Shown in pieces: positions 6,782 through 42,367 of a stretch of 64,000 bases of DNA. The position numbers and the translations under genes are program-made. The DNA comes from Cyanophora paradoxa CCMP329 (taxonomy: Eukaryota > Plantae > Glaucophyta): the NCBI GenBank assembly GCA_004431415.1, contig QPMI01000475.1, forward strand, positions 1 through 64,000, read 5' to 3'. Position 1 is the stretch's first letter, and each line of letters starts with the position of its first letter. Under the pieces are notes generated by a model. That model saw only the letters and a program-made list of their open reading frames with translations, was not told where the DNA came from and ran no database searches.

Positions 6782-6800
6782 CTATTTGATTAATATAAAG

Positions 6801-8532: not shown

Positions 8533-8551
8533 TTTCTACAAGTAGTTTAGA

Positions 8552-8815: not shown

Positions 8816-8853
8816 TGTACATTATTTTTCTTTCCTTCTTAGTAAAAGAAGCA

Positions 8854-9694: not shown

Positions 9695-10048
9695 AAATTA
9701 ATCGAAAATATTTAAAAAATAAATCAAAATTTTTAATAAAATCAATTAAATTTAAATAAATTCGATTAAATTAATTGGTATAATATCAATTAAATTATGA
9801 TTTTATGAAATTTATATAAATTTTTGATAAATTACGTATTTCTCGATTGATTTAATGATATAAACGCGATTAATTTGTATTTAAATGAAAAATACGTATT
9901 TTGCGATTGATATAAACGCGATTAATTTGTATTTTATGCAAAATCGATATAATCTCGATTGAGGGAACATAAATTTATGATATAATCAATCACGATTGAA
10001 GTAGTCCACCTCCCATTCTATCGTAAAACGCAAAAATTCACACAGAGT

Positions 10049-10700
10049 TGCATTACGTCCAATTAAACAATCGATGAGATTGCGGCGTATTTTGTTGGAA
10101 GAGATGGTTACTGCATTATGTCCAATTAAACAATCGATGAAATATCGGATGAAAATAATTCACTCGTTACGGCATTATGTCCAATTAAACAATCGTTGAG
10201 ATTGCGGGAAACAAAAATGACCCCAGAGTTGCATTATGTCCAATTAAACAATCGATGAAATATCGGATGAAAATAATTCACTCGTTACTGCATTATGTCC
10301 AATTAAACAATCGATGAGATTGCGGCGTATTTTGTTGGAAGGGATGGTTACTGCATTATGTCCAATTAAACAATCGATGAGATTGCGGCGTATTTTGTTG
10401 GAAGGGATGGTTACTGCATTATGTCCAATTAAACAATCGATGAAATATCGGATGAAAATAATTCACTCGTTACTGCATTATGTCCAATTAAACAATCGAT
10501 GAGATTGCGGCGTATTTTGTTGGAAGGGATGGTTACTGCATTATGTCCAATTAAACAATTGATGAGATTGCGGTGTATTTTGTTGGATTAGATGGTTACT
10601 GCATTATGTCCAATTAAACAATCGATGAGATTCGGGTAAGATTTTTACTGTATCAAAATTGACCCCAGAGTTGCATTATGTCCAATTAAACAATTGATAA
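10049..10700 (+). repeat. Array of 11 conserved 29-bp repeats with 30-43-bp variable spacers (in left TIR)
   Basis: TGCATTATGTCCAATTAAACAATCGATGA at 10049, 10112, 10171, 10230, 10289, 10352, 10415, 10474, 10537, 10600 and 10672. Confidence 0.92.
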
Positions 10701-10758
10701 GATTGGATTCTGTTGTTTACTGTAAAAACATTGTATCTTAGGTGTATCAATCTCAATT

Positions 10759-11114
10759 AATCGAGGGTAACAGAGGTAACGGATTTTTCCCAACCTCTCC
10801 CCTAAGATCGAGATTTTCAAAAAGTTGCGCAAAATCCGTTACCTCTGTTACCCTCGATTAAATCCGTTACCTCAATTAAAATCTGTTACCCTTACTGAAA
10901 ATAAGAATGAATCTGTTACCCTTACCATAATAAGTAATGAGTTCTTGAATAATTAATCTTTGTTTAATGATAAACAATTGAGGGTAACAGAGGTAACGGA
11001 TTTTTCCCAACCTTTCCCTAAGATCGAGATTTTCAAAAAGTTGCGCAAAATCCGTTACCTCTGTTACCCTTACTGAAAATAAGAATAAATCTGTTACCTT
11101 TGTTATCTGTTACC
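10759..11114. promoter_or_regulatory. GGTAAC(A/G)GA iteron hairpins (putative origin elements) in left TIR
   Basis: Two inverted-repeat cassettes (10759-10859, 10981-11071) plus extra TGTTACC copies; the same cassette occurs at 20314-20414. Confidence 0.55.
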
Positions 11115-11365
11115 ATTTATAGTAAGAAAACAATAAATTCTTTGTTTTATAAGTAAGATTAACTCGGAAATCGCGCTGCTATCTGCTTCTCCGCTTTCTC
11201 CAACCCTGAAAAGATCTCTGTTATTCTCTCATCTATCAATTTAGATATTACGGAGGTCTTACTTTCAAAAAAATGATGCTCGTGGGCAACCCAAAATGAT
11301 TTAAGGAAGAAGCGACAGTATAGAGTAAACCGGGTAAAAGATTTTCTCAGACGTAATTCAGTGTC

Positions 11366-13956: not shown

Positions 13957-15354
13957 ATGGATGTTACCTCGACCCTTCAACGTCTTTCTCTGAAAGAGGC
14001 GCTAACAACGCCCGAGGAAGCCAAAGCGTTCTTCCTCGATAACTCGCTTATGCTTGGTCTTGAATCAAAGACGAAACCCGTTCTCGTTACTGTTAGTCCC
14101 TCGACAACCTATGAAAACAATGTAGGTCAACGCGTTTCTTTCAAACTTCCCCGCTACAACTTTGTTGGTAAAATCGAACTCGCTTTCGACCTTCCCGAAC
14201 TAACGGCTTTTGAAGGTGATACCGACCTGGTGCGAAATGGTTACACCCGTCCCATCGGTGCGCTTGTAGAGCGTCTTGAATTCTCGTATGGATCGTATAC
14301 CTACCACGTCCCAAGCGATTTTCTTGCGATTTTCCCACTGGTCTACTATTCTGAGGATCAGCTGGCGAAAAAGAAGCGTTCAATGGGAATGCTTCATGGA
14401 ATTCCCGCTCACGGAACCAACCGTAAAGGTGGCGCTTTCTTCGTTGAAATTCCGGTGCCGTGGTTGAACCACTACCTACCTCTTGGCGCTCTGAGCGGTG
14501 AAGCCGTAATCACTGTTTGGTTCAAAGAAGCTAACAAGGGATATCTTGAAACTTCTTATGGCGGTCGCGCTCTTCCGGTTGTGACAACCGCTGCGGATCA
14601 AACCGCAAATGACGGTCTCGGAAGCGCTACTGGTGTAACTCTTGCTAATGTCGGTCAAAACATCACCACTGGCGGTATTACTGGGTTCGAAGTTGCTGGA
14701 ACTGTTCCACCAATGACCCATTACATCTCCATTAAGTCTCCTCGTCTCTACATGCATGCTATTAACGTTTCTGATGAACTGTTCGCTACTGTTATTGAGA
14801 AGGTTAAGACCACGGGGATGGCTATTCCTGCTCTCGATATCGGTTTCGTTGATGCTATCGGTGTTGCTGCGAAAGGTAACACTCAACCCAACCGAATCAA
14901 TCTTAGCCAAATCTCTGGTCTGGTTTATGCTCTTCTTGTCTCTGTTCGCGATGCCGATGGTGTCGATACTTCCAATGGTTCTCACAGCGTTCTAAAAACG
15001 CTTGCGAACGCGAAGGATATCACGATGACCTGTGAGATTAACGGACAACGTCTTTACTCGACGGAGCCAATCCCGCTACTTAAAGGTGCGGAACTCATCG
15101 CCGATGCCTTCAAATGCTCGAATATGGACAAGGAAGCAAACCGTTACGTCCTTACTGGTCTTCCATTCTGTGTTGATGGTGAGAAGGCGATTCGCAACAT
15201 TGCCCAATCTGGATATGTTGATCTCACCAACTCGTCTTCATCATTCCTCACTCTATATCTTCCTGCTGATCGCACAATTACTGTTAACGTTCGCGCTCTC
15301 ATGCATTCGTTCATTATTGTCGATAAGGACGGAATTCGCCGCATTAATCTCTAA
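13957..15354 (+). CDS. Double-jelly-roll major capsid protein (465 aa)
   Basis: Size, position between minor capsid and ATPase genes, NCLDV/PLV-like motifs (GQRVSFKLPR, IELAFDLPEL, YLPLGAL..EAVITVWF, SGYVDL) and strongly biased codon use. Confidence 0.8.
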   Translation: MDVTSTLQRLSLKEALTTPEEAKAFFLDNSLMLGLESKTKPVLVTVSPSTTYENNVGQRVSFKLPRYNFVGKIELAFDLPELTAFEGDTDLVRNGYTRPIGALVERLEFSYGSYTYHVPSDFLAIFPLVYYSEDQLAKKKRSMGMLHGIPAHGTNRKGGAFFVEIPVPWLNHYLPLGALSGEAVITVWFKEANKGYLETSYGGRALPVVTTAADQTANDGLGSATGVTLANVGQNITTGGITGFEVAGTVPPMTHYISIKSPRLYMHAINVSDELFATVIEKVKTTGMAIPALDIGFVDAIGVAAKGNTQPNRINLSQISGLVYALLVSVRDADGVDTSNGSHSVLKTLANAKDITMTCEINGQRLYSTEPIPLLKGAELIADAFKCSNMDKEANRYVLTGLPFCVDGEKAIRNIAQSGYVDLTNSSSSFLTLYLPADRTITVNVRALMHSFIIVDKDGIRRINL

Positions 15355-15415
15355 ACCATTATCAGTAAGATTTCGTTATTTTTATCTATCTTTATTAAGA
15401 AAGATCTACTACGCC

Positions 15416-16198
15416 ATGTCTGACGTTCCCGAATTTAATGCTGCTGAGATGATTAAACCCCCTTTTCGCGTATTAGCAATCGGAAAAAGCGCGACGGGCA
15501 AGTCAGAAGCGGTGAAGTATTGGCTAAAACAACTTCACGATGCGAAAAAGTTAGATGTTGTTCTTGTTATAAGTGGGACGAGTTTCAATCATTTCTGGAA
15601 TGATGTTGCTACATTACAGCTCGGTAAATGGGATGCGCCTTACATTTCTAAACTTCTCGATGAAAGACAAGAGAAAATAGAGAAAGGAGAACCTGTAAAT
15701 CAACTGTTAGTTTTGCTCGATGATTTAATAGATAATGAGTTAGTCGACCTCACCCGTGATAAAATCATTGGTTCTTTGTATTCCCGTGGTCGCCACTCGA
15801 ACATATCGATTGTCTGTATCACACAGAAACTGCGTAAGGTTTCTTCAACCATTCGCGTCAATTCAGATTATGCAATGTTCCTAAGTGCCGCCAATCGCAA
15901 AGAACTGGAAGCCATTGAAGAAGAATACAATATCATGCGGGATAAAGACGCTTTCTATAAGATGTTTGAGGAATACGTTCACTCCTATCAGTTTCTCATT
16001 TGGAGTTCTGCGAATTATTCGGTGGAATACTATGTTGATAAAGCGGAACTCGTTAAAGACTTTAAGTTTCCTCGGTTCCATCGCAAACCAAAAAAGAAAG
16101 AAGATGAATTAAAACCGCCTGAGAAGGAGGAAGCGCCGAAAGAGATTAAAAGCGCTGTTCACACGAATAAGTTGATGCGATATAAGAGGGGATTGTAA
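15416..16198 (+). CDS. A32-like genome packaging ATPase
   Basis: Walker A GKSATGKS, Walker B LLVLLDD, and A32 motifs SRGRHSNIS and ITQ...IRVNSDY. True start is probably the ATG at 15416. Confidence 0.92.
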   Translation: MSDVPEFNAAEMIKPPFRVLAIGKSATGKSEAVKYWLKQLHDAKKLDVVLVISGTSFNHFWNDVATLQLGKWDAPYISKLLDERQEKIEKGEPVNQLLVLLDDLIDNELVDLTRDKIIGSLYSRGRHSNISIVCITQKLRKVSSTIRVNSDYAMFLSAANRKELEAIEEEYNIMRDKDAFYKMFEEYVHSYQFLIWSSANYSVEYYVDKAELVKDFKFPRFHRKPKKKEDELKPPEKEEAPKEIKSAVHTNKLMRYKRGL

Positions 16199-17854: not shown

Positions 17855-20206
17855 ATGAACGCTGCCGCCAAGAAATCCCTGAAACGCCTTGTTGATTGGC
17901 TTCGTGAAGACGATGTCCGGTCTGAGAATATCGTAATCCCCGTCGATCCCGATACCAAAAAACCCCTCTTCGCCCATAAAGACGGATCGTGGACTTGGGA
18001 TAAATTCGATGAAGCCCTGAAATCCGGTAAGTATACTGCTTGGGGCATTCTCGCTCGCAACATCGTGGTTATCGACTTCGACCAAGAGGAGGATTTCGCC
18101 AAATTCGAGGAGGAATATCCCGATGATTTCGGTGGTGTCAATCCTCTTGCTAAAACCAAAAAAGGATATCATGTTTACTTCTCTCGTCCTACTGACTTCG
18201 ATGCTGTTAAGCTCTGGGATAAAGCGGGTGCTTTCAAAGGTTATCCCAAGATTGACTGCAAAACAATTGCATCCACTGGAACGGCTGGGTTGATCAACGT
18301 TTCCCCAAGCCCTGGTAAAACTTGGATCAGAGAACCATGGGCGGAAGGCTGTGAGTTGATCGAACCGAGTGCTGAACTCCAAAAGTGGATGATTGAAAAC
18401 TACCTTTTTCCGAGAGGATCTTTCAGTTTCGTTGAAAAGGGTATTGAGGAGAACTTACAGAAAGCTATCTTTGAGAAACTGGAAGAATTTGGATTCATCA
18501 CACCCACGATCATCAATGAGACGGAGCATGGCTACAATTTCACTGCTGAAAACAAAGGGAATGATTGTCCTTGTTGCAATCGAGTTCACGATTCCAACAA
18601 TTGGTATGTGATTCGAGGAAAAGAGAAGGGCATATATATCGTTTCGAGTTACAGTGCGAATTGCAAGAAGCGTTCTATCATCGTGCGAGTCAAAGAGGAG
18701 ACTTTGGCTAATATCGATCACCTAATTGATAAGTCTACGGGTTCAGATGGCGGGCATTATGATGTTGCGGATGTTGCTTACCTCATTCTGCGGGAAAGCT
18801 ACAAGTTTTCGAACAAGACTTGGTTCAAGTTCAATGAGAAAAGTGGTATTTGGGAGATGGATGATACTGGAAAGCGAATCTATCTTTGTCTGAGTGCGAA
18901 AGTTTGTCCTGCTTATCTGAAACGTGCTATTGAATACTCAACAAAAGCGCTTCGTGATGAAGAGAACCGTAATATGTTCGAAGAGAAGGCAAAGACGTTG
19001 CTTGGAATTGCAAAGATGCTGAAACAAACTTCATATCGGAGGTCGGTTATCAATGATCTCGAAGTTTACCTGAGTGATAGATTGTTCTTTGGGAAACTTG
19101 ATACTGTTCCCAACGTGATCGGGTTCACAAATGGAGTATTCGACTTGAAGACTATGTCTTTTCGCAAAGGAGTTCCGGATGATATGATCAGTAAGACTGT
19201 TGGCTATGATTACACCACAGAAATCGATCAAGAGAAAGTTGAGAAACTCAAATCGATTTACGCTGATATTATCGAATGCCCAATTGATCGTAACTACGTT
19301 CTCGGTTCCATTGCTTTCTCATTGTCTGGTAAGATCGAAAACCAAAAATATCATTTCTGGACTGGAATTGGAGCAAATGGTAAATCACTCCTTCAAGAGT
19401 TGGTGAAAGATACCTATGGTGAATACTATGGATCTCTTGATATGTCGTATTGGACGAAACCAAAGAAAAGTTCATCGGAGGCGTCACCCGAACTTGCCGA
19501 TATTCTTGGAAAAAGGATTGTTTTCAGTAATGAAGCGGAAGATGGCGATAAACTTCAACTCAACAAGATTAAACAGATCAGTGGAGGCAATGAGTTGAAG
19601 GTTCGCGCTCTTTTCAAGGATCCCGTAGTCTTTGTTCCAATGTTTCAGCTGTTCTTGTCAACAAATGACAACCTTGGATTGAGCAAACCCGATAACGCAA
19701 TTGAGAGGCGGACATCTTACTACCGGTTCAAGTGTGTATTCAAACCAAACCCTGGTGAAGGCGAGAAGTTAGCCGATACATCACTTATGTATCTTCTGCG
19801 TGACGATGATGATTACAAGATGGCTAACATGTCAATCTTCTTGGAGATGTGGAAATCCCAAGATCTTCTGAAATTGATGAAGAACCCGCCACAGACCATC
19901 ATTGATGAAGGAGCGAGTTACTTTGCTGAAAATGATAAGATCGGCGAGTGGCTGCGCAACAACTACGAGAAAACAGGAAGCCGGACTGATTTCGTCCCAA
20001 GTGACACGATCATCAAGGGGTTCCGTTCTGTTGATGAGAAAGCGGATCCCATCAGCATTGGTAAGCCAGTTCGGGAGATCTACAATATCAAATCTGAGAC
20101 CAAGAAAGAAAGAGGTCAGGTATCCCGTGGATATTTCGGATTGAAGAAGAAACAGATCGGAGAATTCGTTGATGATGATGGAATCGACAGCGATATCGAG
20201 GCTTGA
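17855..20206 (+). CDS. AEP (Prim-Pol) primase, Zn-ribbon and D5-like SF3 helicase
   Basis: VVIDFD and TKKGYHVYF (AEP motifs), CPCC..H..C, IGFTNGVFDL (D5_N), Walker A GIGANGKS, and motif C LSTND. Confidence 0.92.
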   Translation: MNAAAKKSLKRLVDWLREDDVRSENIVIPVDPDTKKPLFAHKDGSWTWDKFDEALKSGKYTAWGILARNIVVIDFDQEEDFAKFEEEYPDDFGGVNPLAKTKKGYHVYFSRPTDFDAVKLWDKAGAFKGYPKIDCKTIASTGTAGLINVSPSPGKTWIREPWAEGCELIEPSAELQKWMIENYLFPRGSFSFVEKGIEENLQKAIFEKLEEFGFITPTIINETEHGYNFTAENKGNDCPCCNRVHDSNNWYVIRGKEKGIYIVSSYSANCKKRSIIVRVKEETLANIDHLIDKSTGSDGGHYDVADVAYLILRESYKFSNKTWFKFNEKSGIWEMDDTGKRIYLCLSAKVCPAYLKRAIEYSTKALRDEENRNMFEEKAKTLLGIAKMLKQTSYRRSVINDLEVYLSDRLFFGKLDTVPNVIGFTNGVFDLKTMSFRKGVPDDMISKTVGYDYTTEIDQEKVEKLKSIYADIIECPIDRNYVLGSIAFSLSGKIENQKYHFWTGIGANGKSLLQELVKDTYGEYYGSLDMSYWTKPKKSSSEASPELADILGKRIVFSNEAEDGDKLQLNKIKQISGGNELKVRALFKDPVVFVPMFQLFLSTNDNLGLSKPDNAIERRTSYYRFKCVFKPNPGEGEKLADTSLMYLLRDDDDYKMANMSIFLEMWKSQDLLKLMKNPPQTIIDEGASYFAENDKIGEWLRNNYEKTGSRTDFVPSDTIIKGFRSVDEKADPISIGKPVREIYNIKSETKKERGQVSRGYFGLKKKQIGEFVDDDGIDSDIEA

Positions 20207-20699: not shown

Positions 20700-23600
20700 A
20701 TGCCCCGCCAAACGAACAGACTGATCAAAGAAAAGAAAAATGAAATACTTGGATTGTTAGGAACTCTCTTAGTTACCGGTGAGATAACCGAAGCGGAATA
20801 CGATAGAGAAGCCGCCATCTTAGATAGACGACCGCGATTAGGTCAACTCACTGAGATTGCAAATGACCTCTACAATCGCATGCAGAGAATGGAGGAGTTT
20901 ATGGATGAAGGACAGAGATTAGGAGCAATTGACCCGGACATTGAAGATGGTCAAGCAATGAATCAAGCGTATTCGTGGTTGACCTATCGCGCCCGAAACG
21001 AAGTTGTCGTGGATGCTATCGAATTCCTCGAAAGAATCGCACCAAGTCTACCGCAACGCATTAGAACCCGCTTAGATCAACTGAGAGCCGTTAAAGTCCG
21101 TCTGACTTTCGTTTGCAAGTTCACCAAAGTAGGTAATCCGCGCATCTATATCACCAAATTCATTTACAGCGATTATTTCGTAATTACCCGATCCCGCAAC
21201 ATAGACACAGAAGTTCGCAAAGCGTTACAGAAAATGCAAGAGGAAATGACGCAAGTGGATAGTTACCGTTTAGAGAAGATCGAAATTTTAAGAGGTGTAA
21301 TCATGTCATACGCACCTGTGGGTGGTTGTTTTTTCGCAACTCCCGAATGGATCGCATCCAAGAAGGCAACGGTGAACGTTAAGAATATCGACGGTCAAGA
21401 TTGCTTCAAGTATGCGATTTTGGCTTACCTACATCGAAAGGACATTAACAAACACAAGAGCAACGAACCAAGCCAATACCGCAGATGGTTAAATGAACTC
21501 AATTTCGAAGGTATTCAGTTTCCCGTTGCCTGTGATGCTGAGGTAATCGATCGATTCGAAGAACTGAACCCCGAACTTTCTATTAACATTTACGGAGCCG
21601 ATAACGCCAAAGAGTGTTTCTATCCTCTCCATCAATCAAGTAACCCAAGGAGAAAGACCAAGATTAATCTTTTACTTATCGAAAACACCGAAGATGATCG
21701 GGGACACTACATTACTATCATGTCTTTTAGTCGTCTTCTGAAAACTACATTTGATAAAGCATGTGATGGTCGCATTTACTACTGTGAAACCTGCTTGTCT
21801 CGTTTCAGAACTCAGGAGAAATTAGACCTGCATGTTGAAGCGAATCGCTGCATTGATTGGAGGGAGAGCAAAGGCAAATGCCCAAAAGCGGGAAGCGTAA
21901 TTGAATTCGGTCTGCAACATCTGCGTAAAACTGTTTGGCTACCCGTGATCTGTTATGTTAAAGTCGAAGATCATTCGGTTGCTATTGATGCACAGAGGAG
22001 TAAACGTGAGATCAAAGCGGTTTCATTGAGAGTGGTAATGGGAGATGAAGTGAGAGCATACCATTTCGAGGGAGCCGATCCGCTTGGTTCTCTCTTTGCT
22101 ACTCTACAAGATATTAGACCCGAAATCGTTGAGACGCTGTTTAGAAACATTCCGATGCATCCACTCACAGACGATCAGAAGGCGGAATACAAGGTAACAA
22201 AACACTGTTACATTTGCTCTCAGAGATTCACCCACGAAAACTTCCCGGTTCGCGATCATTGCCACCAATCCGGCGATTTCATCGGAAAGGCATGCCGAAA
22301 CTGTAACCTCCACCGGCGAATCTCAAAGCAAACCAAAGTAGCTATCGTGGTCGATCACATGGATGAATGCGGACACGGAATATTCCGCAAAATTGCCCAA
22401 CAAGATGATAAACTACGTGTTGAGATTCTGAGCAAGAATTTCGATCAATACCTATCGCTTCAATGGGGCATGTGGAAGTTCATAGATGCTTCCCATTTTA
22501 TGGATTTCCAATCTGTGGATGTAGGCGATTTAATGAGAAAGTTTGAAGCATTTCGCAAATTGGCGTTTTCTCAATACGGATTGGATCCCGCACATTATGT
22601 TAGCGCACCGGGTCTCTCTTGGGATGCTATGCTAAAACATACGAAAGTTAAGATTGAACTAATCGATGATGTAGAGAAATACGAATTTGTTGAGAGAGCC
22701 ATTCGCGGTGGATTTGCTACCATGCCCACACGATACGCAAAGGTAGAAAACCCCAACGATCATATAGTTCTGTTGGATGCAAATAATCTTTATGGTTATG
22801 CTCTCAGTCAACCACTACCAATCGGAGATTATCGATGGGAAGACATCACAGAGGCACTTAAAGAGGTAGAGGGACGAAGCGCATTTATTGAAGTAGATCT
22901 TGAATACCCCACAACTTTTGAAGATCATTACGATTTCCCACTGATTGTGAATAAAGAAGTGATTACCGCTGAAATGCTTGGTGATTATCAACGTAAACTA
23001 TTAGATCTGACGGGCGAAAAGATCAGCAAAGACCCCAAACTTACAGCGACATTTACGCCCAAGAATAAATACGTGATTGCTCGACCTCTTCTTAACTACA
23101 TCGTTAAAAAGGGTGTCATTCTAAAAAAGATACATAAAGTTCTCTCATTCGCTACCTCCCCATTCATGAGATCTTACATTGGTCTGAATACTCTACTCCG
23201 CCATGAATCTACTAACCATTTTGAAAGCGACTTCTTTAAACTCATGAACAATGCAATTTACGGTAAATGTTTGGAATCTTGCAGGGGTCGCTCAACTGTC
23301 AAGATTGCTAACAGTGAGAAACTCTGTAAGAAATACGCAGCAAGTCCGCTTATCAAGGCGACCAATGTATTAAACGAAAACGCAGTTGCCTTCGAGATGT
23401 ATTCGAAGCATGTTAATTTAGATAAACCCGTAGCAATTGGCGCTTTCGTTTTGGATTTCGCGAAACTCCATAATTATCGATTCTTCTATGATGTGGTAAG
23501 GAAGAAGTGGGAAACCGCCAAACTACTGTTCCACGATACCGATTCGTTCTGTTTGTTCTTGAAAACAAATAATCTCAATGAAGATATGAAAGAGATAGGT

Positions 23601-23981
23601 GAGTATCTCGATAGGAGCAATTACGATAAATCCCATCCTCTTGTGAGTATCAAAAACCGCATGGTTCCTGGTAAATATAAGAATGAGTTTCCAAATGCAA
23701 AGATCATGGAGTATGTGGGTCTGAGATCGAAACTCTATGCTTTCAGAACTGAGACCAACGAAAGAGTAAAGATGTCGGGGACTTCCTCGAAAGAGGTTCA
23801 CTTTGACGATTTTAAGAGATGTCTGTTTGAAGGCATCATAAAAACAGTATCAGTAACAAACAAGCGAAGGCAAGACCACAACTTATATGACTTGGAGAGC
23901 AGAAGGGTCGCTCTAAACCAACTCGATAGCAAACGGAAGATATCAGCCGACGGCATTCACAGCATTCCATTTGGTCTTTAA
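20700..23981 (+). CDS. Polinton-type (protein-primed family) DNA polymerase B with Zn-finger and Endo VII-like domain
   Basis: CFKYAIL, C2H2 (CETC...LHVEANRC), RDHCHQSG..GKACRNCN, motif A DANNLYGYAL, motif B KLMNNAIYGK, motif C DTDS, and LRSKLY. Confidence 0.93.
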   Translation: MPRQTNRLIKEKKNEILGLLGTLLVTGEITEAEYDREAAILDRRPRLGQLTEIANDLYNRMQRMEEFMDEGQRLGAIDPDIEDGQAMNQAYSWLTYRARNEVVVDAIEFLERIAPSLPQRIRTRLDQLRAVKVRLTFVCKFTKVGNPRIYITKFIYSDYFVITRSRNIDTEVRKALQKMQEEMTQVDSYRLEKIEILRGVIMSYAPVGGCFFATPEWIASKKATVNVKNIDGQDCFKYAILAYLHRKDINKHKSNEPSQYRRWLNELNFEGIQFPVACDAEVIDRFEELNPELSINIYGADNAKECFYPLHQSSNPRRKTKINLLLIENTEDDRGHYITIMSFSRLLKTTFDKACDGRIYYCETCLSRFRTQEKLDLHVEANRCIDWRESKGKCPKAGSVIEFGLQHLRKTVWLPVICYVKVEDHSVAIDAQRSKREIKAVSLRVVMGDEVRAYHFEGADPLGSLFATLQDIRPEIVETLFRNIPMHPLTDDQKAEYKVTKHCYICSQRFTHENFPVRDHCHQSGDFIGKACRNCNLHRRISKQTKVAIVVDHMDECGHGIFRKIAQQDDKLRVEILSKNFDQYLSLQWGMWKFIDASHFMDFQSVDVGDLMRKFEAFRKLAFSQYGLDPAHYVSAPGLSWDAMLKHTKVKIELIDDVEKYEFVERAIRGGFATMPTRYAKVENPNDHIVLLDANNLYGYALSQPLPIGDYRWEDITEALKEVEGRSAFIEVDLEYPTTFEDHYDFPLIVNKEVITAEMLGDYQRKLLDLTGEKISKDPKLTATFTPKNKYVIARPLLNYIVKKGVILKKIHKVLSFATSPFMRSYIGLNTLLRHESTNHFESDFFKLMNNAIYGKCLESCRGRSTVKIANSEKLCKKYAASPLIKATNVLNENAVAFEMYSKHVNLDKPVAIGAFVLDFAKLHNYRFFYDVVRKKWETAKLLFHDTDSFCLFLKTNNLNEDMKEIGEYLDRSNYDKSHPLVSIKNRMVPGKYKNEFPNAKIMEYVGLRSKLYAFRTETNERVKMSGTSSKEVHFDDFKRCLFEGIIKTVSVTNKRRQDHNLYDLESRRVALNQLDSKRKISADGIHSIPFGL

Positions 23982-24166: not shown

Positions 24167-25567
24167 ATGCCCTCAGCACAGATAGGATTACGACCCGTTC
24201 CTAAAATCGTAAAGAAGAGCATGAAAGAAGACCAAGGGAACATGCTACCGATCACTATTCCGGTCGAAGAGAAGAACACGCGAATCTTGAAGAAGTCTGA
24301 GATGGTTAAAGAACTGATCCCGGAGGCATTACCTACTGAGACTGCAACGAAAGAATCGAAGATCGCGAAGAAGTTTTACGATCCGCGCACGGGTTACAAG
24401 GGTTTCGGGGCAATGAGAAAGGAACTACCAGAGGAAGACTACAAGAAGATGAGAGAATGGTATGATAAACAGGAAGTCGTTCAGATAAACGCACCGACCC
24501 TTTCAAGAAAGAGAGATCCGATGATTCCGATTCGGCAACCTCTCGATACCTACGTAATCGATCTGCTCTTCTTCCCAGCATACAAGAACCAAAACGACGG
24601 ATACGATACGTTCATGTCCGCGATGGAATCTACCTTACGCACGGGTTACATCATTCCGATGAGAGATAAGAGCGCTCTTACGGCGCTTGCGGCGTTTGAA
24701 CAGCTACAACGAAGAGTTCCTCGACCTATCGCACGCGTTCAGAGTGACAGCGGAAGCGAGTTCACAAATAACATGTTCACGAATTACCTTGCTAAGAAGT
24801 TCATAGACCATCAGATAAGCGATGTCGCAGATCATCGAAGCCAAGGTAGAATCGAAGCGTTTAACAAGCAGATCAAACGATTGATCACGAACTATTGCAT
24901 AGCAAACAACACAGCGCGATTCTTCGATGTATTGGGAGACATTGAGTATAACTATAATAATACCATCCACTCAGCAACCAAGAGAAAACCAGCAGAAACG
25001 ACGGAAGATCATTACCGTGAGATTATCGGATTAGAAGATGAGAGGTTCAAGAAGTCGATTGCTTACTTGGATGGTATCAAACAGGGTATGTTTGTGAGAG
25101 TGAGAATAGAAAAGAACCCATTCGCTAAACAAGGTGTCAATTGGTCGCGAATCGTCTATACTGTCGAAGGGAGAGAGGGTTTCAAGTTCAGGTTGCGAAA
25201 TCCGAACGGCGAAATGGTCGAAGGGAGATTCGCTTTCCACGAACTGTTACCTATCAAAGGTGTTGAGTATCACGAAGCGCCCACAGTGGATGCACTTGAA
25301 CAAGCGAAAGAAGAAGCCCGGGTCGATTCGGCAATTCGCAAGGAAGGCATCGAAAAAGCGGATGACGTCCCAGAAGAACCGTTAACACAAGCCAGAACCA
25401 AGAAGAAAGGTAAGGCGGAACGTGAATTAAAGAAGTTAACCATAGCAGGAACCCAGAAACTATCAGAAGTCAACAGTCAGAGATGGTATACAGACTTTCA
25501 GACCTCAAAAGAGACATATTCAGCCCCACAAACCCGGGTAAATCTAAGATCCAGTTCGCGAAAGTAG
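24167..25567 (+). CDS. Retroviral-type (RVE) DDE integrase
   Basis: YVIDL, QSDSGSEF, QGRIEAFNKQIK and YNNTIHSATKRKP; Polinton-like C-terminal FAKQGVNWS..VYTV. Confidence 0.93.
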   Translation: MPSAQIGLRPVPKIVKKSMKEDQGNMLPITIPVEEKNTRILKKSEMVKELIPEALPTETATKESKIAKKFYDPRTGYKGFGAMRKELPEEDYKKMREWYDKQEVVQINAPTLSRKRDPMIPIRQPLDTYVIDLLFFPAYKNQNDGYDTFMSAMESTLRTGYIIPMRDKSALTALAAFEQLQRRVPRPIARVQSDSGSEFTNNMFTNYLAKKFIDHQISDVADHRSQGRIEAFNKQIKRLITNYCIANNTARFFDVLGDIEYNYNNTIHSATKRKPAETTEDHYREIIGLEDERFKKSIAYLDGIKQGMFVRVRIEKNPFAKQGVNWSRIVYTVEGREGFKFRLRNPNGEMVEGRFAFHELLPIKGVEYHEAPTVDALEQAKEEARVDSAIRKEGIEKADDVPEEPLTQARTKKKGKAERELKKLTIAGTQKLSEVNSQRWYTDFQTSKETYSAPQTRVNLRSSSRK

Positions 25568-26096: not shown

Positions 26097-27653
26097 CTAT
26101 CGTATAAATGCGCCCGTCACATCGACTCTCATGGTCGGGGCATTTATATATACCAGCGGATATATTCGTATATATCTTGTTCTCAGTGGGAAACCTATAT
26201 AGAAAACATCGTTTATTGCAAGCGGAAAGCCCCCGTTATATGATACATCCCCAGAATTATGTGCATTATTTATATTCTCACATACAAACATTCTATTCAC
26301 ACCTTCATACTTGATATATGACCATGAAACCCCATCTTGCGATGTTGCAACATTGAAAGTCTTAATAAACGCAGTTGTTATACCTGAACCATAAGCAATT
26401 ATAGAAGCGATTTCATATGTATATGGAAAAGCAATTTGCAAATATTCAGTTGGCGTTTCCCATACTCCGTTTATGGCGGATGCGTTCGCTTCCCATCCTG
26501 TTAATGATGGGCGGGCTTTAAATGCCTCTTTTCCGAATTTCGCAGACGAAGCAGAAAACGCATTATCTGACAGAAGATACCAATTAGCGTCAATGGGAGG
26601 TATGTTATTAAGAGTGGAAGATATATACGATCTGACAGGGTTATTAATCTCATAATTTGTTACAAGTAAATCACAGAGTCTATTTATCATAGCGTCATTT
26701 GCAGCAATATACGTTTCAGTGAATGCGAGCATTTCAGGTATCTTAGATGTATCATCAAGTGATCGAACTATATCATTTGGAAGCGGAACAGAAAGACGGA
26801 AATATCTATTATATCCTTGGTCAAGATTTGGAGGTAGTAATTCTTCCATTTTATCAAGAGCGGATAGTTCGCTTGCAGCCATTAGCATATTAATTAATGG
26901 GCTTCCTTCTGTTGAAGCAATCCATGAAAGAATACCCCAGCTATTCACAGTCTCATAAGCATATCCGAAATATTCAGATTCTAAATTTGCATCAACCTCA
27001 CCACAAGATATACTTATAACTATAATTTCATCATCTTCATTATAAATCTTTTTTGCATGACTATAACCGCATACACTTGGGTTATTGTTTCCTGAAATTG
27101 CGCCATCAATCAGAGAAGCAATTACGCCATTATTGAAATCTACAATGCTAACAGGTGAAAAGTATGTTGGAGCAGCAGATGTAGCACGCGCTACTATTTT
27201 ATTCGGCAAAAAATTGTATTTGTTATCGTTTGTTATAAATATTGGTTTCATATATTGAGTATCAAAAGATGTAATCACAATGTCTTTTAGAGAATCTCTT
27301 ATGAGTGATTCACCAGTTACTGAATAAATCGCACTTTCCAGTGGTGTAGCATCGTATTTTGTATTGAAAAGGGCATTTTCAATGATATTTCGCGGATTCG
27401 CAAAAATTAACGGTAACTGTGTAAGATAAATATTATGCAAATCGTTAGCTGTTAGTTTTGGTTCATTGGGCATCTCAGGATGTCTGATATTTAACCCAAT
27501 CGCAATTATACCACCTGTGGATGTTCCGCTTACAAGATCGACAAGATTTATTATACGTCTTCGAGTTCTATTTTCAATTTCTGTTAGTAACCTTGTTATG
27601 ATAATACCACGCGCACCTCCACCAGACAACGCTAAAACAATCTTCTGAGGCAT
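26097..27653 (-). CDS. Patatin-like phospholipase fused to a discoidin (F5/8 type C) domain
   Basis: GGGARG oxyanion motif, GTSTG nucleophile and DGA catalytic motif; C-terminal EYLQI...RYIRIYP...TMRVDV. Confidence 0.88.
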   Translation of the reverse strand: MPQKIVLALSGGGARGIIITRLLTEIENRTRRRIINLVDLVSGTSTGGIIAIGLNIRHPEMPNEPKLTANDLHNIYLTQLPLIFANPRNIIENALFNTKYDATPLESAIYSVTGESLIRDSLKDIVITSFDTQYMKPIFITNDNKYNFLPNKIVARATSAAPTYFSPVSIVDFNNGVIASLIDGAISGNNNPSVCGYSHAKKIYNEDDEIIVISISCGEVDANLESEYFGYAYETVNSWGILSWIASTEGSPLINMLMAASELSALDKMEELLPPNLDQGYNRYFRLSVPLPNDIVRSLDDTSKIPEMLAFTETYIAANDAMINRLCDLLVTNYEINNPVRSYISSTLNNIPPIDANWYLLSDNAFSASSAKFGKEAFKARPSLTGWEANASAINGVWETPTEYLQIAFPYTYEIASIIAYGSGITTAFIKTFNVATSQDGVSWSYIKYEGVNRMFVCENINNAHNSGDVSYNGGFPLAINDVFYIGFPLRTRYIRIYPLVYINAPTMRVDVTGAFIR

Positions 27654-36834: not shown

Positions 36835-37107
36835 ATGGATGAAAAAACAAAACGATTTATTGAGTCTGCGATTATGGTTCATGGACTTGATAAATTCGAT
36901 TATACCGAGACTGTCTATAAGAAGGCACAAGAGAAGGTATCCGTGAGATGCCTACAATGTAATAAAGTCTTTCAGACTTACGGATTTAATCACATTAAGG
37001 GATCGGGTTGCCGACAGTGTTCTAAGAAACACTCTCATGCATACAGAAAAAAGACTACATGGGGAATAGTTATAGAAGAGAGACCGATTATGTTGTATTT
37101 TGATTAA
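36835..37107 (+). CDS. Small Zn-ribbon protein (DUF723-like repeat unit)
   Basis: FI..A..VHG.DKFDY....Y.....KV...CLQC...H..GSGC..C resembles the DNA-binding repeats of NCLDV/phage homing-type endonucleases; no nuclease domain. Confidence 0.65.
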   Translation: MDEKTKRFIESAIMVHGLDKFDYTETVYKKAQEKVSVRCLQCNKVFQTYGFNHIKGSGCRQCSKKHSHAYRKKTTWGIVIEERPIMLYFD

Positions 37108-37293: not shown

Positions 37294-37695
37294 ATGAACT
37301 ATCATCGGGGATTTCACGTGATGTTGGATTACAAGTTCAATCATCCATTGATGGTGGGATTGGACAACATAGACACCACAACGAAGTGGTTAATGCAATT
37401 TTTTCAATCTATTATTCAAGAGCAAGGTATCCGAGTTGTTCACAAGCATTGCGAGATTTTCGATGGTGGTGTTTCGCCACCCGGTTTTGCGATGGTATTA
37501 CTCCTCGATGAGAGCCATTTAACCGCTCATTGTTATTCAGACCAGGGAATGTTGGCGATTGATATATTCACTTGCGGATTGGAAGCGCAAAGTAAGACCT
37601 CCGTAATATCTAAATTGATAGATGAGAGAATAACAGAGATCTTTTCAGGGTTGGAGAAAGCGGAGAAGCAGATAGCAGCGCGATTTCCGAGTTAA
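37294..37695 (+). CDS. speD: S-adenosylmethionine decarboxylase proenzyme (short prokaryotic/viral type)
   Basis: G.H...D, F..GVSPPG.A.VLLLDESHLTAHCY (pyruvoyl E|SH cleavage site) and AIDIFTCG. Confidence 0.88.
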   Translation: MNYHRGFHVMLDYKFNHPLMVGLDNIDTTTKWLMQFFQSIIQEQGIRVVHKHCEIFDGGVSPPGFAMVLLLDESHLTAHCYSDQGMLAIDIFTCGLEAQSKTSVISKLIDERITEIFSGLEKAEKQIAARFPS

Positions 37696-39267
37696 TCTTA
37701 CTTATAAAACAAAGAATTTATTGTTTTCTTACTATAAATGGTAACAGATAACAAAGGTAACAGATTTATTCTTATTTTCAGTAAGGGTAACAGAGGTAAC
37801 GGATTTTGCGCAACTTTTTGAAAATCTCGATCTTAGGGGAAAGGTTGGGAAAAATCCGTTACCTCTGTTACCCTCAATTGTTTATCATTAAACAAAGATT
37901 AATTATTCAAGAACTCATTACTTATTATGGTAAGGGTAACAGATTCATTCTTATTTTCAGTAAGGGTAACAGATTTTAATTGAGGTAACGGATTTAATCG
38001 AGGGTAACAGAGGTAACGGATTTTGCGCAACTTTTTGAAAATCTCGATCTTAGGGGAGAGGTTGGGAAAAATCCGTTACCTCTGTTACCCTCGATTAATT
38101 GAGATTGATACACCTAAGATACAATGTTTTTACAGTAAAAAACAGAATCCAATCTTATCAATTGTTTAATTGGACATAATGCAACTCTGGGGTCAATTTT
38201 GATACAGTAAAAATCTTACCCGAATCTCATCGATTGTTTAATTGGACATAATGCAGTAACCATCTAATCCAACAAAATACACCGCAATCTCATCAATTGT
38301 TTAATTGGACATAATGCAGTAACCATCCCTTCCAACAAAATACGCCGCAATCTCATCGATTGTTTAATTGGACATAATGCAGTAACGAGTGAATTATTTT
38401 CATCCGATATTTCATCGATTGTTTAATTGGACATAATGCAGTAACCATCCCTTCCAACAAAATACGCCGCAATCTCATCGATTGTTTAATTGGACATAAT
38501 GCAGTAACCATCCCTTCCAACAAAATACGCCGCAATCTCATCGATTGTTTAATTGGACATAATGCAGTAACGAGTGAATTATTTTCATCCGATATTTCAT
38601 CGATTGTTTAATTGGACATAATGCAACTCTGGGGTCATTTTTGTTTCCCGCAATCTCAACGATTGTTTAATTGGACATAATGCCGTAACGAGTGAATTAT
38701 TTTCATCCGATATTTCATCGATTGTTTAATTGGACATAATGCAGTAACCATCTCTTCCAACAAAATACGCCGCAATCTCATCGATTGTTTAATTGGACGT
38801 AATGCAACTCTGTGTGAATTTTTGCGTTTTACGATAGAATGGGAGGTGGACTACTTCAATCGTGATTGATTATATCATAAATTTATGTTCCCTCAATCGA
38901 GATTATATCGATTTTGCATAAAATACAAATTAATCGCGTTTATATCAATCGCAAAATACGTATTTTTCATTTAAATACAAATTAATCGCGTTTATATCAT
39001 TAAATCAATCGAGAAATACGTAATTTATCAAAAATTTATATAAATTTCATAAAATCATAATTTAATTGATATTATACCAATTAATTTAATCGAATTTATT
39101 TAAATTTAATTGATTTTATTAAAAATTTTGATTTATTTTTTAAATATTTTCGATTAATTTACACATAAATAAAAACAAATTTAAATCCTGAGCGACAGAG
39201 CGAAATGAGCGCGAAGCGCGAATTGAGCGATAGAGCGAGGGATTTAAATTTGTTTTTATTTATGTGT
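37589..39267 (-). repeat. Right terminal inverted repeat of the inner element
   Basis: Mirror of 9588-11265, including the array (38155-38806) and terminal hairpin (39161-39267). Confidence 0.95.
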
Positions 39268-39273
39268 TATGGG

Positions 39274-39385
39274 TATCAGAACAGATATAGCTGCTGTCTC
39301 AGCTCTTAGAGGTGTTACTCCTGATACTCTTTCTCAAACAGGGTTTTACCAAGAGCCAGATGTAATTGATGACCCAACCCAATAA
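39274..39385 (+). pseudogene. 3' part of the disrupted spike-family gene of the outer element
   Basis: Removing the inner element and one TSD gives ...TVMG-IRTDIAAVSALRGVTPD...DPTQ*, matching FGMRTDPAAVAATRGLNPD...DPTP* of 35106..35948. Confidence 0.92.
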
Positions 39386-39408
39386 AAGATATATCCCTTT
39401 AATGTAAA

Positions 39409-40239
39409 ATGGCTGAGCAACCCCCACTTGAACGAATTATTACACCACAGCTATCATTAGCTGCCCCAGCAAACCATGTTCTACAGCATGCTACCTTTGA
39501 TGATGTAGAGGGTCTCCAATCGACAGAGGTCCAACCTACAATGAACACCTTTGGTTCCACCCATAAACTGAGATTACAGGAACTCAGATGTGATAAAAAT
39601 AATGGAATAGTTAAGACAACTAAGCTACTTGTTACCAATGCAAACTTTTCTGCTCATTATGGAGACCCAGATAGCTATGGAGATCCTCTTTCTACTTATT
39701 CTTTTGAATCTAGGTCGGGAGCTATTAACTGCAAATCGGGGGAGCTTATATTGGTGATGGTCTTAGGGTTGGTGGGGCTGTTGGAGCGCCTCTATTTGTG
39801 AATGATCAACCCAATCCCATTGATCCCAACACAAGAATTCGAACCTATGTCCCAGCATGAATGCCCCTATATAATCAAGATATTCCCCATTGTTGTGAAT
39901 GAACAAACAGCAGTAGTAGATTCTCTTGTTGAGATTGGTGACCACTACAAGGTAGTTGTGGATATTCCACCAGATGTTTATGCTCTTTGTCAAGTAGAGG
40001 GTGGAACTCCTAATTTTGCAGTTGTGATCACCCCATATGATAATTTTGGTATTGCTTATCATGGAGTCAATTTCGGTTTGGAAGACTATCAGTTTCTGGT
40101 TAGAGCCACCAAGTTTGGTATCTACAAGTGTGTATTATATGCTGAGAGAACCGATTTTATTGCAAAGCAGAATACCTATGCTGAATACTATGGGACAAAT
40201 CGATATTTCCCCATTTTCGGGCAGGATACTGCTCCATAA
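39409..40239 (+). pseudogene. Spike-family paralog, frameshifted, outer element
   Basis: ORFs 39409..39801 and 39802..40239 are collinear with 35968..36813. Confidence 0.78.
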
Positions 40240-40261
40240 GAATATTGGTTATATATAGAGT

Positions 40262-40534
40262 ATGGATAGTAAAACAAAAAAGTTTATTGATGCTGCTATG
40301 ACAGTCCATGGTAAAGATAAATTCGATTACAGTGAGACACATTACATCAAAGCTCAAGAGAAAGTATCTGTTAGATGTTTGCAATGTAACAAGGTGATCC
40401 TAACATATCCCTTTAATCATGTGAAGGGATCAGGGTGTAGGGACTGTAACAAAAGAAAGAGTCAAGCACACAGGAAAAGGGCTACTTCATCAATCAGAGT
40501 AGAGTATAGGGATATTTGCATTAGGTTTGACTAG
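40262..40534 (+). CDS. Small Zn-ribbon protein (DUF723-like), outer element
   Basis: Homolog of 36835..37107. Confidence 0.7.
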   Translation: MDSKTKKFIDAAMTVHGKDKFDYSETHYIKAQEKVSVRCLQCNKVILTYPFNHVKGSGCRDCNKRKSQAHRKRATSSIRVEYRDICIRFD

Positions 40535-40557
40535 TTAATTTTTCTAAGGTATTCTTA

Positions 40558-40956
40558 ATGGAGACTAAATACAGAGGCTTTCATGTTATGCTTGATTACA
40601 AGGCTAAATCAGCTATTGCAACAGGACATGAGCATGTAAGCTTCCTAGGTAATTGGATTATGGGAACCCTTGAACAAGCAGTATTAAGACAAGGCATTAG
40701 GATTGTTCATAAACACTGTGAGATATTTGATGGCAAAATATCACCTCCTGGTTTTGCATTGGTTCTGCTATTAGATGAAAGCCATTGCACAGCTCATTGT
40801 TATTCCAATGAAGGCATGTTAGCAATTGATATATTCAGTTGTGGTAAAGAAGCTCAGCATAAAACACAAGCAGTTGCAGATGAGATCGATAAAACAATGA
40901 ATTTCTTAACATTTGAGAAGACTGAGAGACATAAACATGATAGATTCCCGTTTTGA
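40558..40956 (+). CDS. speD: S-adenosylmethionine decarboxylase, outer element
   Basis: LLLDESHCTAHCY...AIDIFSCG; homolog of 37294..37695. Confidence 0.88.
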   Translation: METKYRGFHVMLDYKAKSAIATGHEHVSFLGNWIMGTLEQAVLRQGIRIVHKHCEIFDGKISPPGFALVLLLDESHCTAHCYSNEGMLAIDIFSCGKEAQHKTQAVADEIDKTMNFLTFEKTERHKHDRFPF

Positions 40957-41369
40957 TGGGTTTCTATTATGGTGATCAGGGTGATTTACCTTTTTTATTA
41001 CAATGGCAATCGTTAAAAAAGGATATAATATATCCTTTCCTACAATAGCTTTCTACAATGATTTTCTTTCTACAGTAGCTTTTGTTACAATAGAATTCTA
41101 CTGTATGATGTAGCCGAAATATGAATGCACCCTACATTAAGCAATGTCAAGTATTTCGAATACTATTCGATTTCCTTACAATAACACTCAGCATCTGCCC
41201 TAGATTCCCCCTATTATATTATATTTATATTTAAGTGGACTCAAGGTTGACTCATATTAATCGTAAAAGTAGTAAAAGTATATGGATTTTGTTACGAATT
41301 CAATGCAAGGGTTGACTAAGTGGGTTGAGTTGACTCAAATTTCACAGGAAATAACAATGAATCAGAGTA

Positions 41370-41845
41370 TAAATGCATTTTTTGAATCAACTACACCAAC
41401 TAACACTGAGATTTTACCAATATATGAGGTCCTTACTGAATATGGTTTGTGTGACAGGTGTGACAGGTCTATCCCAAACTTTTCTATAGCATAAAAATGA
41501 ACTCTCAAAAGTTTGGGATGGACCTGTCACACCTGTCACACTCGATTATTTCATTTGTTTATTCAAGTAGAATTACATAGATAAACTTCTTACTTATTGT
41601 TACTGAGTTTTTCATTATAAAAGAGATCCTTACTGAATATGGTTTGTGTGACAGGTGTGACAGGATGCATTTTGTGAATCAACTACACCAACTAACACTG
41701 AAATTTTAACATTAAAAGAGATCCTTACTGAATATGGTTTGTGTGACAGGTGTGACAGGTCTATCCCAAACTTTTCTATAACATAAAAATGAACTATCAA
41801 AAGTTTGGGATAGACCTGTCACACCTGTCACACCCAATTATTTCA
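41370..41845. repeat. Duplicated ~170-bp unit with GTGTGACAG iteron hairpins (outer element subterminal region)
   Basis: 35-bp stems at 41449-41541 and 41741-41833, each preceded by TTACTGAATATGGT. Confidence 0.85.
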
Positions 41846-42084
41846 AAAATCCTAAGGGTCCCCCTTAGAATCATTAAAACATGATAAAAACATATAAGTT
41901 TCATGTATAATTACGATTGAATTCAATAAGAGATCGATTTGTTTTATTTAACAAATGAATCTTTTATGGATCTTAATCGAGTTTAGCGATATATTTCCGA
42001 TTAAATGAATTAAATTTAATTAAATTTAATCGAGAAAGTACATGAATATAATATCGATTAAATCAATTAACTTTTAGACCAATC

Positions 42085-42367
42085 ACACATAGTAAAATGC
42101 GGAGTTTTAACCAGAGGCAAGATCTAATTGAGATTCAGTTATATTATTCGGAAATATATACAGATTATCGATAGACTCAGTAAGACTAATCGGAAAATAA
42201 GAGAAATTTACGATAAAATATCGAAAAGAATACAAAATAATCGAAATAAATGAATATTCGATAAGATATACACAGATTATCGATTGATTGAAATAGAATA
42301 TACGAGATATATCAACAAAATCAATTAAGATAAGCCGAGGGTTAAAACTCCGCATTTTACTATGTGT
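42085..42367. other. Right terminal hairpin of the outer element (28-bp stem)
   Basis: ACACATAGTAAAATGCGGAGTTTTAACC at 42085-42112 and its reverse complement at 42340-42367. Confidence 0.9.

What the first reader, a model, noticed from the sequence alone, without database searches (positions are those of the whole stretch)
37294..37695. AdoMet decarboxylase as a conserved terminal gene of small eukaryotic viruses
Seen: an intact pyruvoyl-type SpeD (ESH, CG motifs) is the last gene in both elements (also 40558-40956), diverged but conserved. Known: polyamine genes occur in giant viruses and phages, and SpeD homologs can be neofunctionalised to arginine/ornithine decarboxylases. Inference: unusual for a ~30-kb PLV. 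It may supply polyamines for DNA packaging, or drain SAM to counter host methylation silencing (cf. the T3 SAM lyase strategy).
Basis: partly seen in the sequence, partly recalled or inferred. Interest (0 to 1): 0.75.

Follow-up and report, generated by a model that had tools for sequence, protein, structure and literature searches.

The report
Arginine decarboxylase in polinton-like viruses
Two nested polinton-like viruses in an algal genome each end in an intact, conserved SpeD-like gene that likely makes agmatine from arginine instead of breaking down SAM, which would make it a polyamine-boosting gene that these small viruses likely swap with giant viruses.

Summary
Observation confirmed. 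A 29.7-kb element (9588-39267; 1,679-bp terminal inverted repeats, 6-bp target duplication) sits inside a second, related element. Each ends in an intact class 1b SpeD-like gene. The two proteins are 55% identical, keep the self-cleavage Ser, His and Cys, and are under purifying selection. The proteins group with archaeal, planctomycete and algal homologs of the clade shown in print to decarboxylate arginine (SpeDA), away from canonical AdoMetDCs. They lack the Pro typical of those enzymes, and relatives are fused or adjacent to agmatine-using enzymes. A SAM drain is therefore unlikely. The gene is not rare: a 2025 supplement lists this Pfam in 66 of 156 glaucophyte PLVs and 72 cryptophyte PLVs, with no comment in the text. 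New here: the likely arginine specificity, and two separate PLV lineages whose genes each sit beside giant-virus genes. No activity was measured, and the assayed SpeDA proteins themselves were not retrieved.

The parts
37294..37695 (+). SpeD-like proenzyme gene of the inner element, likely an arginine decarboxylase (SpeDA); predicted cleavage E73-S74, with H79 and C94
40558..40956 (+). SpeD-like proenzyme gene of the outer element; predicted cleavage E74-S75, with H80 and C95
9588..39267 (.). Inner polinton-like element, 29,680 bp, flanked by a TATGGG target-site duplication
9588..11265 (.). Left terminal inverted repeat; holds a reverse copy of the last 35 codons of the SpeD-like gene, and a terminal palindrome
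37589..39267 (.). Right terminal inverted repeat; overlaps the 3' end of the SpeD-like gene
36835..37107 (+). 90-aa Cys-rich ORF (weak treble-clef zinc finger match) directly upstream of the inner gene
40262..40534 (+). Paralogous 90-aa ORF directly upstream of the outer gene (66% identical)
15104..16198 (+). A32-type packaging ATPase (true start likely further downstream)
   Evidence: PF04665 E 1.8e-11
13957..15354 (+). Candidate major capsid protein (not confirmed)
   Evidence: position beside the ATPase; weak profile match only; fold failed
17855..20206 (+). Primase-helicase (Prim-Pol, D5_N, DUF5906)
20700..23981 (+). Likely protein-primed family B DNA polymerase
   Evidence: motifs read from the translation (recalled PolB motifs); Pfam gave only Endonuclease_7
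24167..25567 (+). rve-type integrase
   Evidence: E 2e-4, below cut-off; fits the 6-bp duplication
26097..27653 (-). Patatin phospholipase fused to a discoidin (F5/8) domain
1..9587 (.). Left part of the outer element (continues beyond the window start); its last gene is interrupted by the inner element
39268..42367 (.). Right part of the outer element, ending in a terminal palindrome (42085-42367)

Best explanation
The last gene of each of the two nested polinton-like elements encodes an intact, selected class 1b SpeD-like proenzyme that is predicted to cleave itself at Glu-Ser and likely decarboxylates arginine to agmatine (SpeDA), not SAM. The elements carry no downstream polyamine enzyme. 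Agmatine would therefore be handed to enzymes of the host or of a co-infecting giant virus, raising putrescine and then spermidine or homospermidine for viral translation and DNA packaging. The enzyme is about 130 aa and needs no PLP, which would suit a 30-kb genome. The gene was likely exchanged with giant viruses, separately in at least two PLV lineages. Shown: gene, position, selection, fold match, catalytic residues, tree placement. Inferred: cleavage, substrate, metabolic use, direction of transfer.
For: (1) Residues equal to T. maritima S63, H68 and C83, which PMC10407285 names as essential, are present. (2) The best named homologs are from Poseidoniales archaea, planctomycetes and diatoms. 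PMC10407285 assayed members of such a clade (Poseidoniales, MG II/III, Gimesia, Solirubrobacter, Nannochloropsis, Tribonema): all were active on arginine, none on ornithine or lysine, and those tested did not complement speD. (3) In both careful trees the canonical-type references are split from the window proteins and these homologs (99/95; 100/97). (4) The position of T. maritima P71 is Pro in 9 of 9 references, but Ser, Ala or Thr in 376 of 390 homologs and Ser in both window proteins. The four ODC-diagnostic residues are absent. (5) The next gene in archaeal loci L005 and L006 is DHS/SpeY-like. Of 33 long homologs scanned, 5 are fused to DHS/SpeY, 2 to an arginase/agmatinase-family domain, 3 to a PQ-loop domain, and 0 to spermidine synthase. 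Bacterial SpeY uses agmatine (PMC13625781). (6) The nearest relatives with known context lie in chlorovirus-like contigs (L001-L003, 44-51% identical; the L001 capsid matches PBCV-1 Vp54 at E 4e-191). A second PLV group (L016, L018, L021) pairs with giant-virus-like L031-L033 (100/99). PLV copies form one clade in 0 of 200 bootstrap trees; AU p 0.0015.
Against: No activity was measured, and none of the assayed SpeDA accessions turned up in my searches; placement rests on same-taxon orthologs. The ingroup was gathered with the window protein as query, so its unity is partly built in. SpeDC proteins, Marinimicrobia-type SpeDA and the two validated algal-virus AdoMetDCs are not in my trees. The validated AdoMetDC of phage phiYS40 also lacks that Pro and fell inside the ingroup on a very long branch; I then left it out. 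I could not see Fig. 8 of PMC10407285, so which Pro is diagnostic is my inference. Four of 33 long homologs are fused to a SAM-dependent NNMT-like domain. The join of the window group with the giant-virus group was 98/92 but only 91/76, on about 130 columns. The AU group was chosen after seeing a tree. Whether the host can convert agmatine was not testable (no genome held).
Confidence: 0.7

Rival explanations
1. It is a bona fide AdoMetDC that supplies decarboxylated SAM for spermidine synthesis by the host.
For: Pfam label and fold. Two algal giant viruses encode validated class 1b AdoMetDCs (PMC9992855). phiYS40 shows that the Pro is dispensable.
Against: Below the TIGR03330 cut-off; tree placement; no spermidine synthase among the 33 window ORFs scanned or the 33 long homologs. 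The position of T. maritima E72 is Asp in the inner and Asn in the outer protein, against Glu in 9 of 9 references (its ribose-binding role is recalled, paper not held).
Confidence: 0.1
2. It drains SAM, or makes decarboxylated SAM, to blunt host DNA-methylation silencing, like the T3 SAM lyase strategy.
For: The terminal position could allow early expression (inference). The inner element is not CpG-depleted (observed/expected 1.06-1.16).
Against: It needs SAM as substrate, which is unlikely. The outer element carries the gene yet is CpG-depleted with TpG/CpA excess (0.21-0.29; the gene itself 0.15). Reported SpeD-type enzymes are slow and prone to self-inactivation (PMC10407285).
Confidence: 0.04
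3. It is an arginine decarboxylase used as a weapon: the PLV drains arginine or builds up agmatine to hinder a co-infecting giant virus and so protect the host.
For: The elements encode no agmatine-consuming enzyme. PLVs are described as lowering giant-virus yield (abstract of PMC12220804).
Against: Giant-virus contigs carry close relatives of the gene (L001-L003, L015, L031-L033), which suggests it helps viral growth. Chloroviruses also encode their own arginine decarboxylase (PMC9992855).
Confidence: 0.1
4. It has shifted again, to ornithine or another amino acid, which would give putrescine directly without host agmatine enzymes.
For: Substrate shifts are frequent in this family, and one phage enzyme acts on both Arg and Orn. 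An ornithine decarboxylase would need no partner gene.
Against: None of the four SpeDC-diagnostic residues is present. All assayed members of the related clade were arginine-specific.
Confidence: 0.06

Closest known systems
SpeDA, pyruvoyl-dependent L-arginine decarboxylase; Poseidoniales/Gimesia/Nannochloropsis/Tribonema clade (PMC10407285)
   Same: Class 1b fold, S/H/C catalytic set, shared PPGF and DESH..HCY motifs, no Pro at T. maritima 71, same tree group as Poseidoniales and planctomycete orthologs (40-45% identity to the archaeal ones).
   Different: Encoded by integrating eukaryotic viruses, alone, without speY/speB; activity not assayed; no viral member of this clade is named in the parts of the two papers that I read.
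Class 1b AdoMetDC (T. maritima 1TLU, A. aeolicus 2III; S-PM2; Heterosigma akashiwo virus 01; Yellowstone Lake phycodnavirus 2)
   Same: Fold (TM 0.63-0.68) and self-cleavage residues.
   Different: 17-23% structural-alignment identity, below the equivalog cut-off, H-C-Y-S in place of H-T-W/Y-P-E, separate branch.
AdoMet_dc (PF02675) column of PLV gene content, Table S6 of PMC12220804
   Same: Same Pfam in glaucophyte PLVs (66 of 156) and cryptophyte PLVs (10 of 177, 17 of 57, 45 of 706). That paper also reports discoidin domains, some fused to patatin, in glaucophyte PLVs.
   Different: Only a count: the main text has no hit for decarboxylase, AdoMet, polyamine or spermidine, so it gives no substrate or origin.
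Chlorovirus PBCV-1 arginine decarboxylase and pelagiphage HTVC201P pyruvoyl ADC (PMC9992855)
   Same: Viral arginine-to-agmatine step feeding polyamine synthesis.
   Different: The PBCV-1 enzyme is PLP-dependent and comes with AIH, NCPAH and HSS; the phage enzyme belongs to another SpeD branch and infects bacteria.
Phage T3 SAM lyase (recalled)
   Same: Small viral gene near a genome end.
   Different: Unrelated fold and chemistry; no evidence here that SAM is the substrate.

Membership tests
Class 1b pyruvoyl SpeD superfamily (PF02675) | Profile score above the curated cut-off | tested here: met
   46.6 and 44.2 bits against 25
Class 1b pyruvoyl SpeD superfamily (PF02675) | Ser63, His68 and Cys83 equivalents | tested here: met
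   S74/H79/C94 and S75/H80/C95
Class 1b pyruvoyl SpeD superfamily (PF02675) | Class 1b fold | tested here: met
   pLDDT 94.7; top five PDB hits are class 1b AdoMetDCs
Class 1b pyruvoyl SpeD superfamily (PF02675) | Autocleavage to a pyruvoyl enzyme | not testable with these tools
   needs protein expression
Bona fide AdoMetDC (TIGR03330) | Equivalog cut-off of 75.65 bits | tested here: not met
   48.9 and 44.7
Bona fide AdoMetDC (TIGR03330) | Conserved Pro of PMC10407285 Fig. 8 (taken here as T. maritima P71) | tested here: inconclusive
   Ser in both proteins, Pro in 9 of 9 references. Figure not seen; phiYS40 AdoMetDC also lacks it; the P51 equivalent is kept.
Bona fide AdoMetDC (TIGR03330) | Groups with canonical AdoMetDCs | tested here: not met
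SpeDA (arginine decarboxylase) | Groups with the Poseidoniales/planctomycete/stramenopile clade | tested here: met
   using same-taxon orthologs; assayed accessions not retrieved
SpeDA (arginine decarboxylase) | No spermidine synthase partner; link to agmatine-using enzymes | tested here: met
   none in the elements; relatives beside or fused to SpeY/DHS or arginase-family domains
SpeDA (arginine decarboxylase) | Activity on L-arginine, none on SAM | not testable with these tools
   needs assay
SpeDC (ornithine decarboxylase) | Diagnostic Gln, Thr, Phe, Tyr | tested here: not met
   Leu, Glu, Cys, Ala at the positions read from the Fig. S5 alignment
Polinton-like virus | Terminal inverted repeats, target duplication and integrase | tested here: met
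   1,679-bp repeats, TATGGG duplication, rve match below cut-off
Polinton-like virus | A32-type packaging ATPase | tested here: met
   E 1.8e-11
Polinton-like virus | Own replicase (pPolB and/or primase-helicase) | tested here: met
   primase-helicase by Pfam; PolB by recalled motifs only
Polinton-like virus | Double jelly-roll major capsid protein | tested here: inconclusive
   weak profile match; single-sequence model pLDDT 37; no relative in viral contigs

The most novel reading that the evidence does not exclude
This is a pyruvoyl arginine decarboxylase of eukaryotic viruses and a true auxiliary metabolic gene of polinton-like viruses. It has moved between PLVs and giant viruses at least twice, so the sister genes in GC-rich chlorovirus-like contigs mark the still unknown giant-virus partner of glaucophyte PLVs, and the PLV steers the arginine and polyamine pool of the co-infected cell.
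Probability: 0.3. Interest if true: 0.7.

Novelty: new member of a known kind. Interest (0 to 1): 0.46.

Why it matters
PLVs are thought of as minimal capsid-and-replication elements. A selected metabolic enzyme shared with giant viruses suggests that they manipulate host metabolism too. In the parts of the 2023 virosphere survey that I read, the SpeD homologs of eukaryotic viruses that were tested were true AdoMetDCs, so arginine activity here would extend SpeDA to eukaryotic viruses. It would also prompt a re-check of the annotation of more than 130 tabulated PLV genes. The 133-aa protein can be tested in days with a published E. coli assay, and its tree gives a lead to the giant virus that these endogenous elements may depend on.

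Tried and rejected
No whole genome is held for the window, so host polyamine genes and element copy number were not examined. Expression: no listed run is on record as RNA. Contigs of four runs guessed to be RNA (X15, X16, X17, X19) cover the outer-type gene but bridge into neighbouring DNA, and X22 does not cover it; none of this is evidence either way. The first viral-contig scan found no relative, and a scan with the candidate capsid found none. The capsid model was unusable, and no Atlas result was obtained for it. The genome-contig scan gave 1 locus, a Thermoplasmatota MAG. Phage and plasmid searches gave only weak canonical SpeD hits. BFVD gave 5 hits at E below 0.001, none named as a eukaryotic virus. 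The 221-aa minus-strand ORF 11159-11824, which ends in the SpeD C-terminus, is treated as a by-product of the repeat overlapping the antisense of a + strand ORF. Ala at the T. maritima S55 position was considered as a defect and rejected: it is the majority state in homologs (264 of 390). Literature searches with no hit: PLV + adenosylmethionine decarboxylase; Cyanophora + arginine decarboxylase + agmatine; PLV + AdoMet + endogenous + virus + protist. Pyruvoyl + arginine decarboxylase + giant virus gave only PMC9992855. The T. maritima ligand-complex paper was not available, so residue roles in SAM binding are recalled. L009 (T4-like genes, SpeD at the contig end, 91% like L008) may be chimeric and was not counted.

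Full report
Observation. Both ORFs are real at the given coordinates. They pass the Pfam AdoMet_dc cut-off, are 55% identical, and align to T. maritima AdoMetDC with Ser63, His68 and Cys83 kept. A model from a 50-sequence alignment has pLDDT 94.7, and its top five PDB matches are class 1b AdoMetDCs. Synonymous sites between the copies are saturated (pS 0.86) while pN is 0.29. Of the 19 variants listed for other copies of the outer gene, 13 are synonymous, P about 1e-5 (11 rows of the table were not shown). The gene is under purifying selection.

Anatomy. The window holds a 29,680-bp element at 9588-39267 with 1,679-bp inverted repeats (99.9% identical) and a TATGGG target duplication. It is inserted into a gene of a second, related element, which runs from beyond the window start to a palindrome ending at 42367. 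The inner element encodes an A32 ATPase, a primase-helicase, an rve integrase (below cut-off), a patatin-discoidin fusion and fibre proteins, plus a likely PolB read from recalled motifs. The capsid was not confirmed. In both elements a 90-aa Cys-rich gene is followed by the SpeD-like gene and then the terminus. The last 35 codons of the inner gene lie inside the repeat. GC is about 40% against 71% in the intron-rich host DNA beyond 46000. Earlier scan notes name the host as the glaucophyte Cyanophora paradoxa (unchecked). This fits a paper that reports discoidin and patatin-discoidin genes in glaucophyte PLVs, but I did not test it directly.

What the enzyme likely is. Both proteins fall well below the AdoMetDC equivalog cut-off. 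Named homologs come from Poseidoniales archaea, planctomycetes and diatoms. PMC10407285 (parts 1-5 of 7 and the supplement text read; figures not seen) reports that a well-supported clade with Poseidoniales, MG II/III, Gimesia, Solirubrobacter, Nannochloropsis and Tribonema proteins decarboxylates arginine, not ornithine or lysine, and that those tested do not complement speD. In my trees (85 rows; 55 rows, after dropping 33 long-branch or redundant rows and adding 3) the window proteins lie with such homologs, away from 9 or 6 canonical-type references (99/95 and 100/97). Only two of those references (S-PM2, P2559S) come from phages validated in PMC9992855. The P71 position is Pro in 9 of 9 references and Ser, Ala or Thr in 376 of the 390 homologs that carry the motif, out of 407 proteins held. 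The ODC-diagnostic residues are missing. Context agrees: DHS/SpeY follows the gene in L005 and L006. Among 33 long homologs, 5 carry DHS/SpeY, 2 an arginase-family domain, 3 a PQ-loop, 4 an NNMT-like domain, 1 SET, and none spermidine synthase. SpeY couples agmatine (PMC13625781, passages).

Against. The assayed SpeDA accessions were not retrieved. The ingroup was collected with the window protein as query. SpeDC, the other SpeDA clades and the validated algal-virus AdoMetDCs are missing from the trees. The validated phiYS40 AdoMetDC lacks the Pro and fell inside the ingroup on a 2.46-long branch in the quick tree; it was dropped afterwards.

Distribution. Of 9 metagenome loci, 3 are chlorovirus-like: L001 has a capsid matching PBCV-1 Vp54, and L002 and L003 share its RNase III and D5 neighbours. 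Three are archaeal-type, 1 is likely eukaryotic, 1 is PLV-like (L008) and 1 is doubtful. Of 8 viral loci, 4 are PLV-like by ATPase and gene order (L016, L018, L019, L021; capsid identity is my reading), 1 is a giant virus (L015) and 3 are phage-like. A further scan added giant-virus-like L031-L033, 60-66% identical to the L018 protein. The window pair groups with the chlorovirus-like set (98/92, 91/76), and L016/L018/L021 group with L031-L033 (100/99). PLV copies are never one clade in 200 bootstrap trees, and an AU test rejects holding them together (p 0.0015; group chosen after seeing a tree). At least two separate acquisitions or exchanges are likely. The direction is not resolved, and both groups could also have drawn on eukaryotic hosts, since the window group nests among algal sequences (98/98).

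Prior knowledge. PMC12220804 (passages, part of section 13, and supplement Table S6 read) counts PF02675 in 66 of 156 glaucophyte PLVs, and in 10 of 177, 17 of 57 and 45 of 706 PLVs of three cryptophytes. It finds none in the other 15 host groups, 17 reference PLVs or 40 virophages. Its main text never mentions the gene. PMC9992855 (outline, passages, section 6 part 1, one supplement search) validated AdoMetDC in two algal giant viruses and ADC/ODC-type SpeD only in phages; 'polinton' does not occur in it. Term searches of PMC10120064 and bioRxiv 10.64898/2026.10.13.758929 found no 'decarboxylase'; their supplements were not seen and could list the gene. So the presence of the gene in PLVs is on record; its likely substrate and its tie to giant viruses were not found in print.

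Mechanism. Inferred steps: self-cleavage at Glu-Ser gives a pyruvoyl enzyme; arginine is turned into agmatine; host or helper-virus enzymes turn agmatine into putrescine and higher polyamines that support translation and DNA packaging. I give this 0.70. Rivals: true AdoMetDC 0.10, agmatine or arginine drain against a giant virus 0.10, other substrate 0.06, SAM drain against methylation 0.04. The last is also weakened by the strong CpG depletion of the outer element, which carries the gene (0.21-0.29 against 1.06-1.16 in the inner one).

Verdict. A real and selected gene, likely mislabelled, already tabulated but not interpreted. New member of a known kind; interest 0.46.

Noticed in passing
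window 1-9587 and 39274-40956 versus 9588-39267: The outer element is strongly CpG-depleted (observed/expected 0.21-0.29, with TpG/CpA excess) while the nested inner element (1.06-1.16) and host DNA (1.1) are not; fibre-gene parts of the inner element around 30-35 kb are intermediate.
   Followed up: partly
window 9582-9587 / 39268-39273: One PLV is inserted into a gene of a related PLV with a clean 6-bp duplication; a DNA run shows the uninterrupted form in other copies (loose end at 39267).
   Followed up: partly
   Followed up: no
window 38122-38824 and 10031-10733: Array of about 60-bp repeats with a constant core inside the terminal repeats, preceded by short GTAAC-rich palindromic repeats that also occur at 20257-20453, between the helicase and polymerase genes.
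   Followed up: no
window 27703-35056 and 3485-6530: Fibre genes with 12-residue HTHTK..ITDFA repeats; several are split by frameshifts in this assembly, more so in the outer element (indels relative to other copies).
   Followed up: no
proteins P0154, P0162, P0177, P0222: SpeDA-like domain fused to an NNMT/PNMT-like methyltransferase and, in two cases, a DHS/SpeY domain: a possible single-chain route to methylated polyamines.
   Followed up: no
proteins P0320, P0334, P0341 and others: Diatom SpeDA-like domains fused to a PQ-loop transporter domain; PQ-loop proteins are recalled as cationic amino acid transporters.
   Followed up: no
L001 1907-13887: GC-rich (62%) chlorovirus-like contig with a SpeDA-like gene, whereas described chloroviruses use a PLP-dependent arginine decarboxylase: a possible convergent replacement.
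   Followed up: partly
L021 645-1010: A PLV-like contig encodes a SET-domain protein near its SpeDA-like gene.
   Followed up: no
L014 9501-11003: Phage-like contig with a SpeDA-like gene between two DUF2589 genes.
   Followed up: no
window 43300-46300: About 3 kb of palindrome-rich, low-coding DNA of about 50% GC between the outer element and the GC-rich host genes.
   Followed up: no
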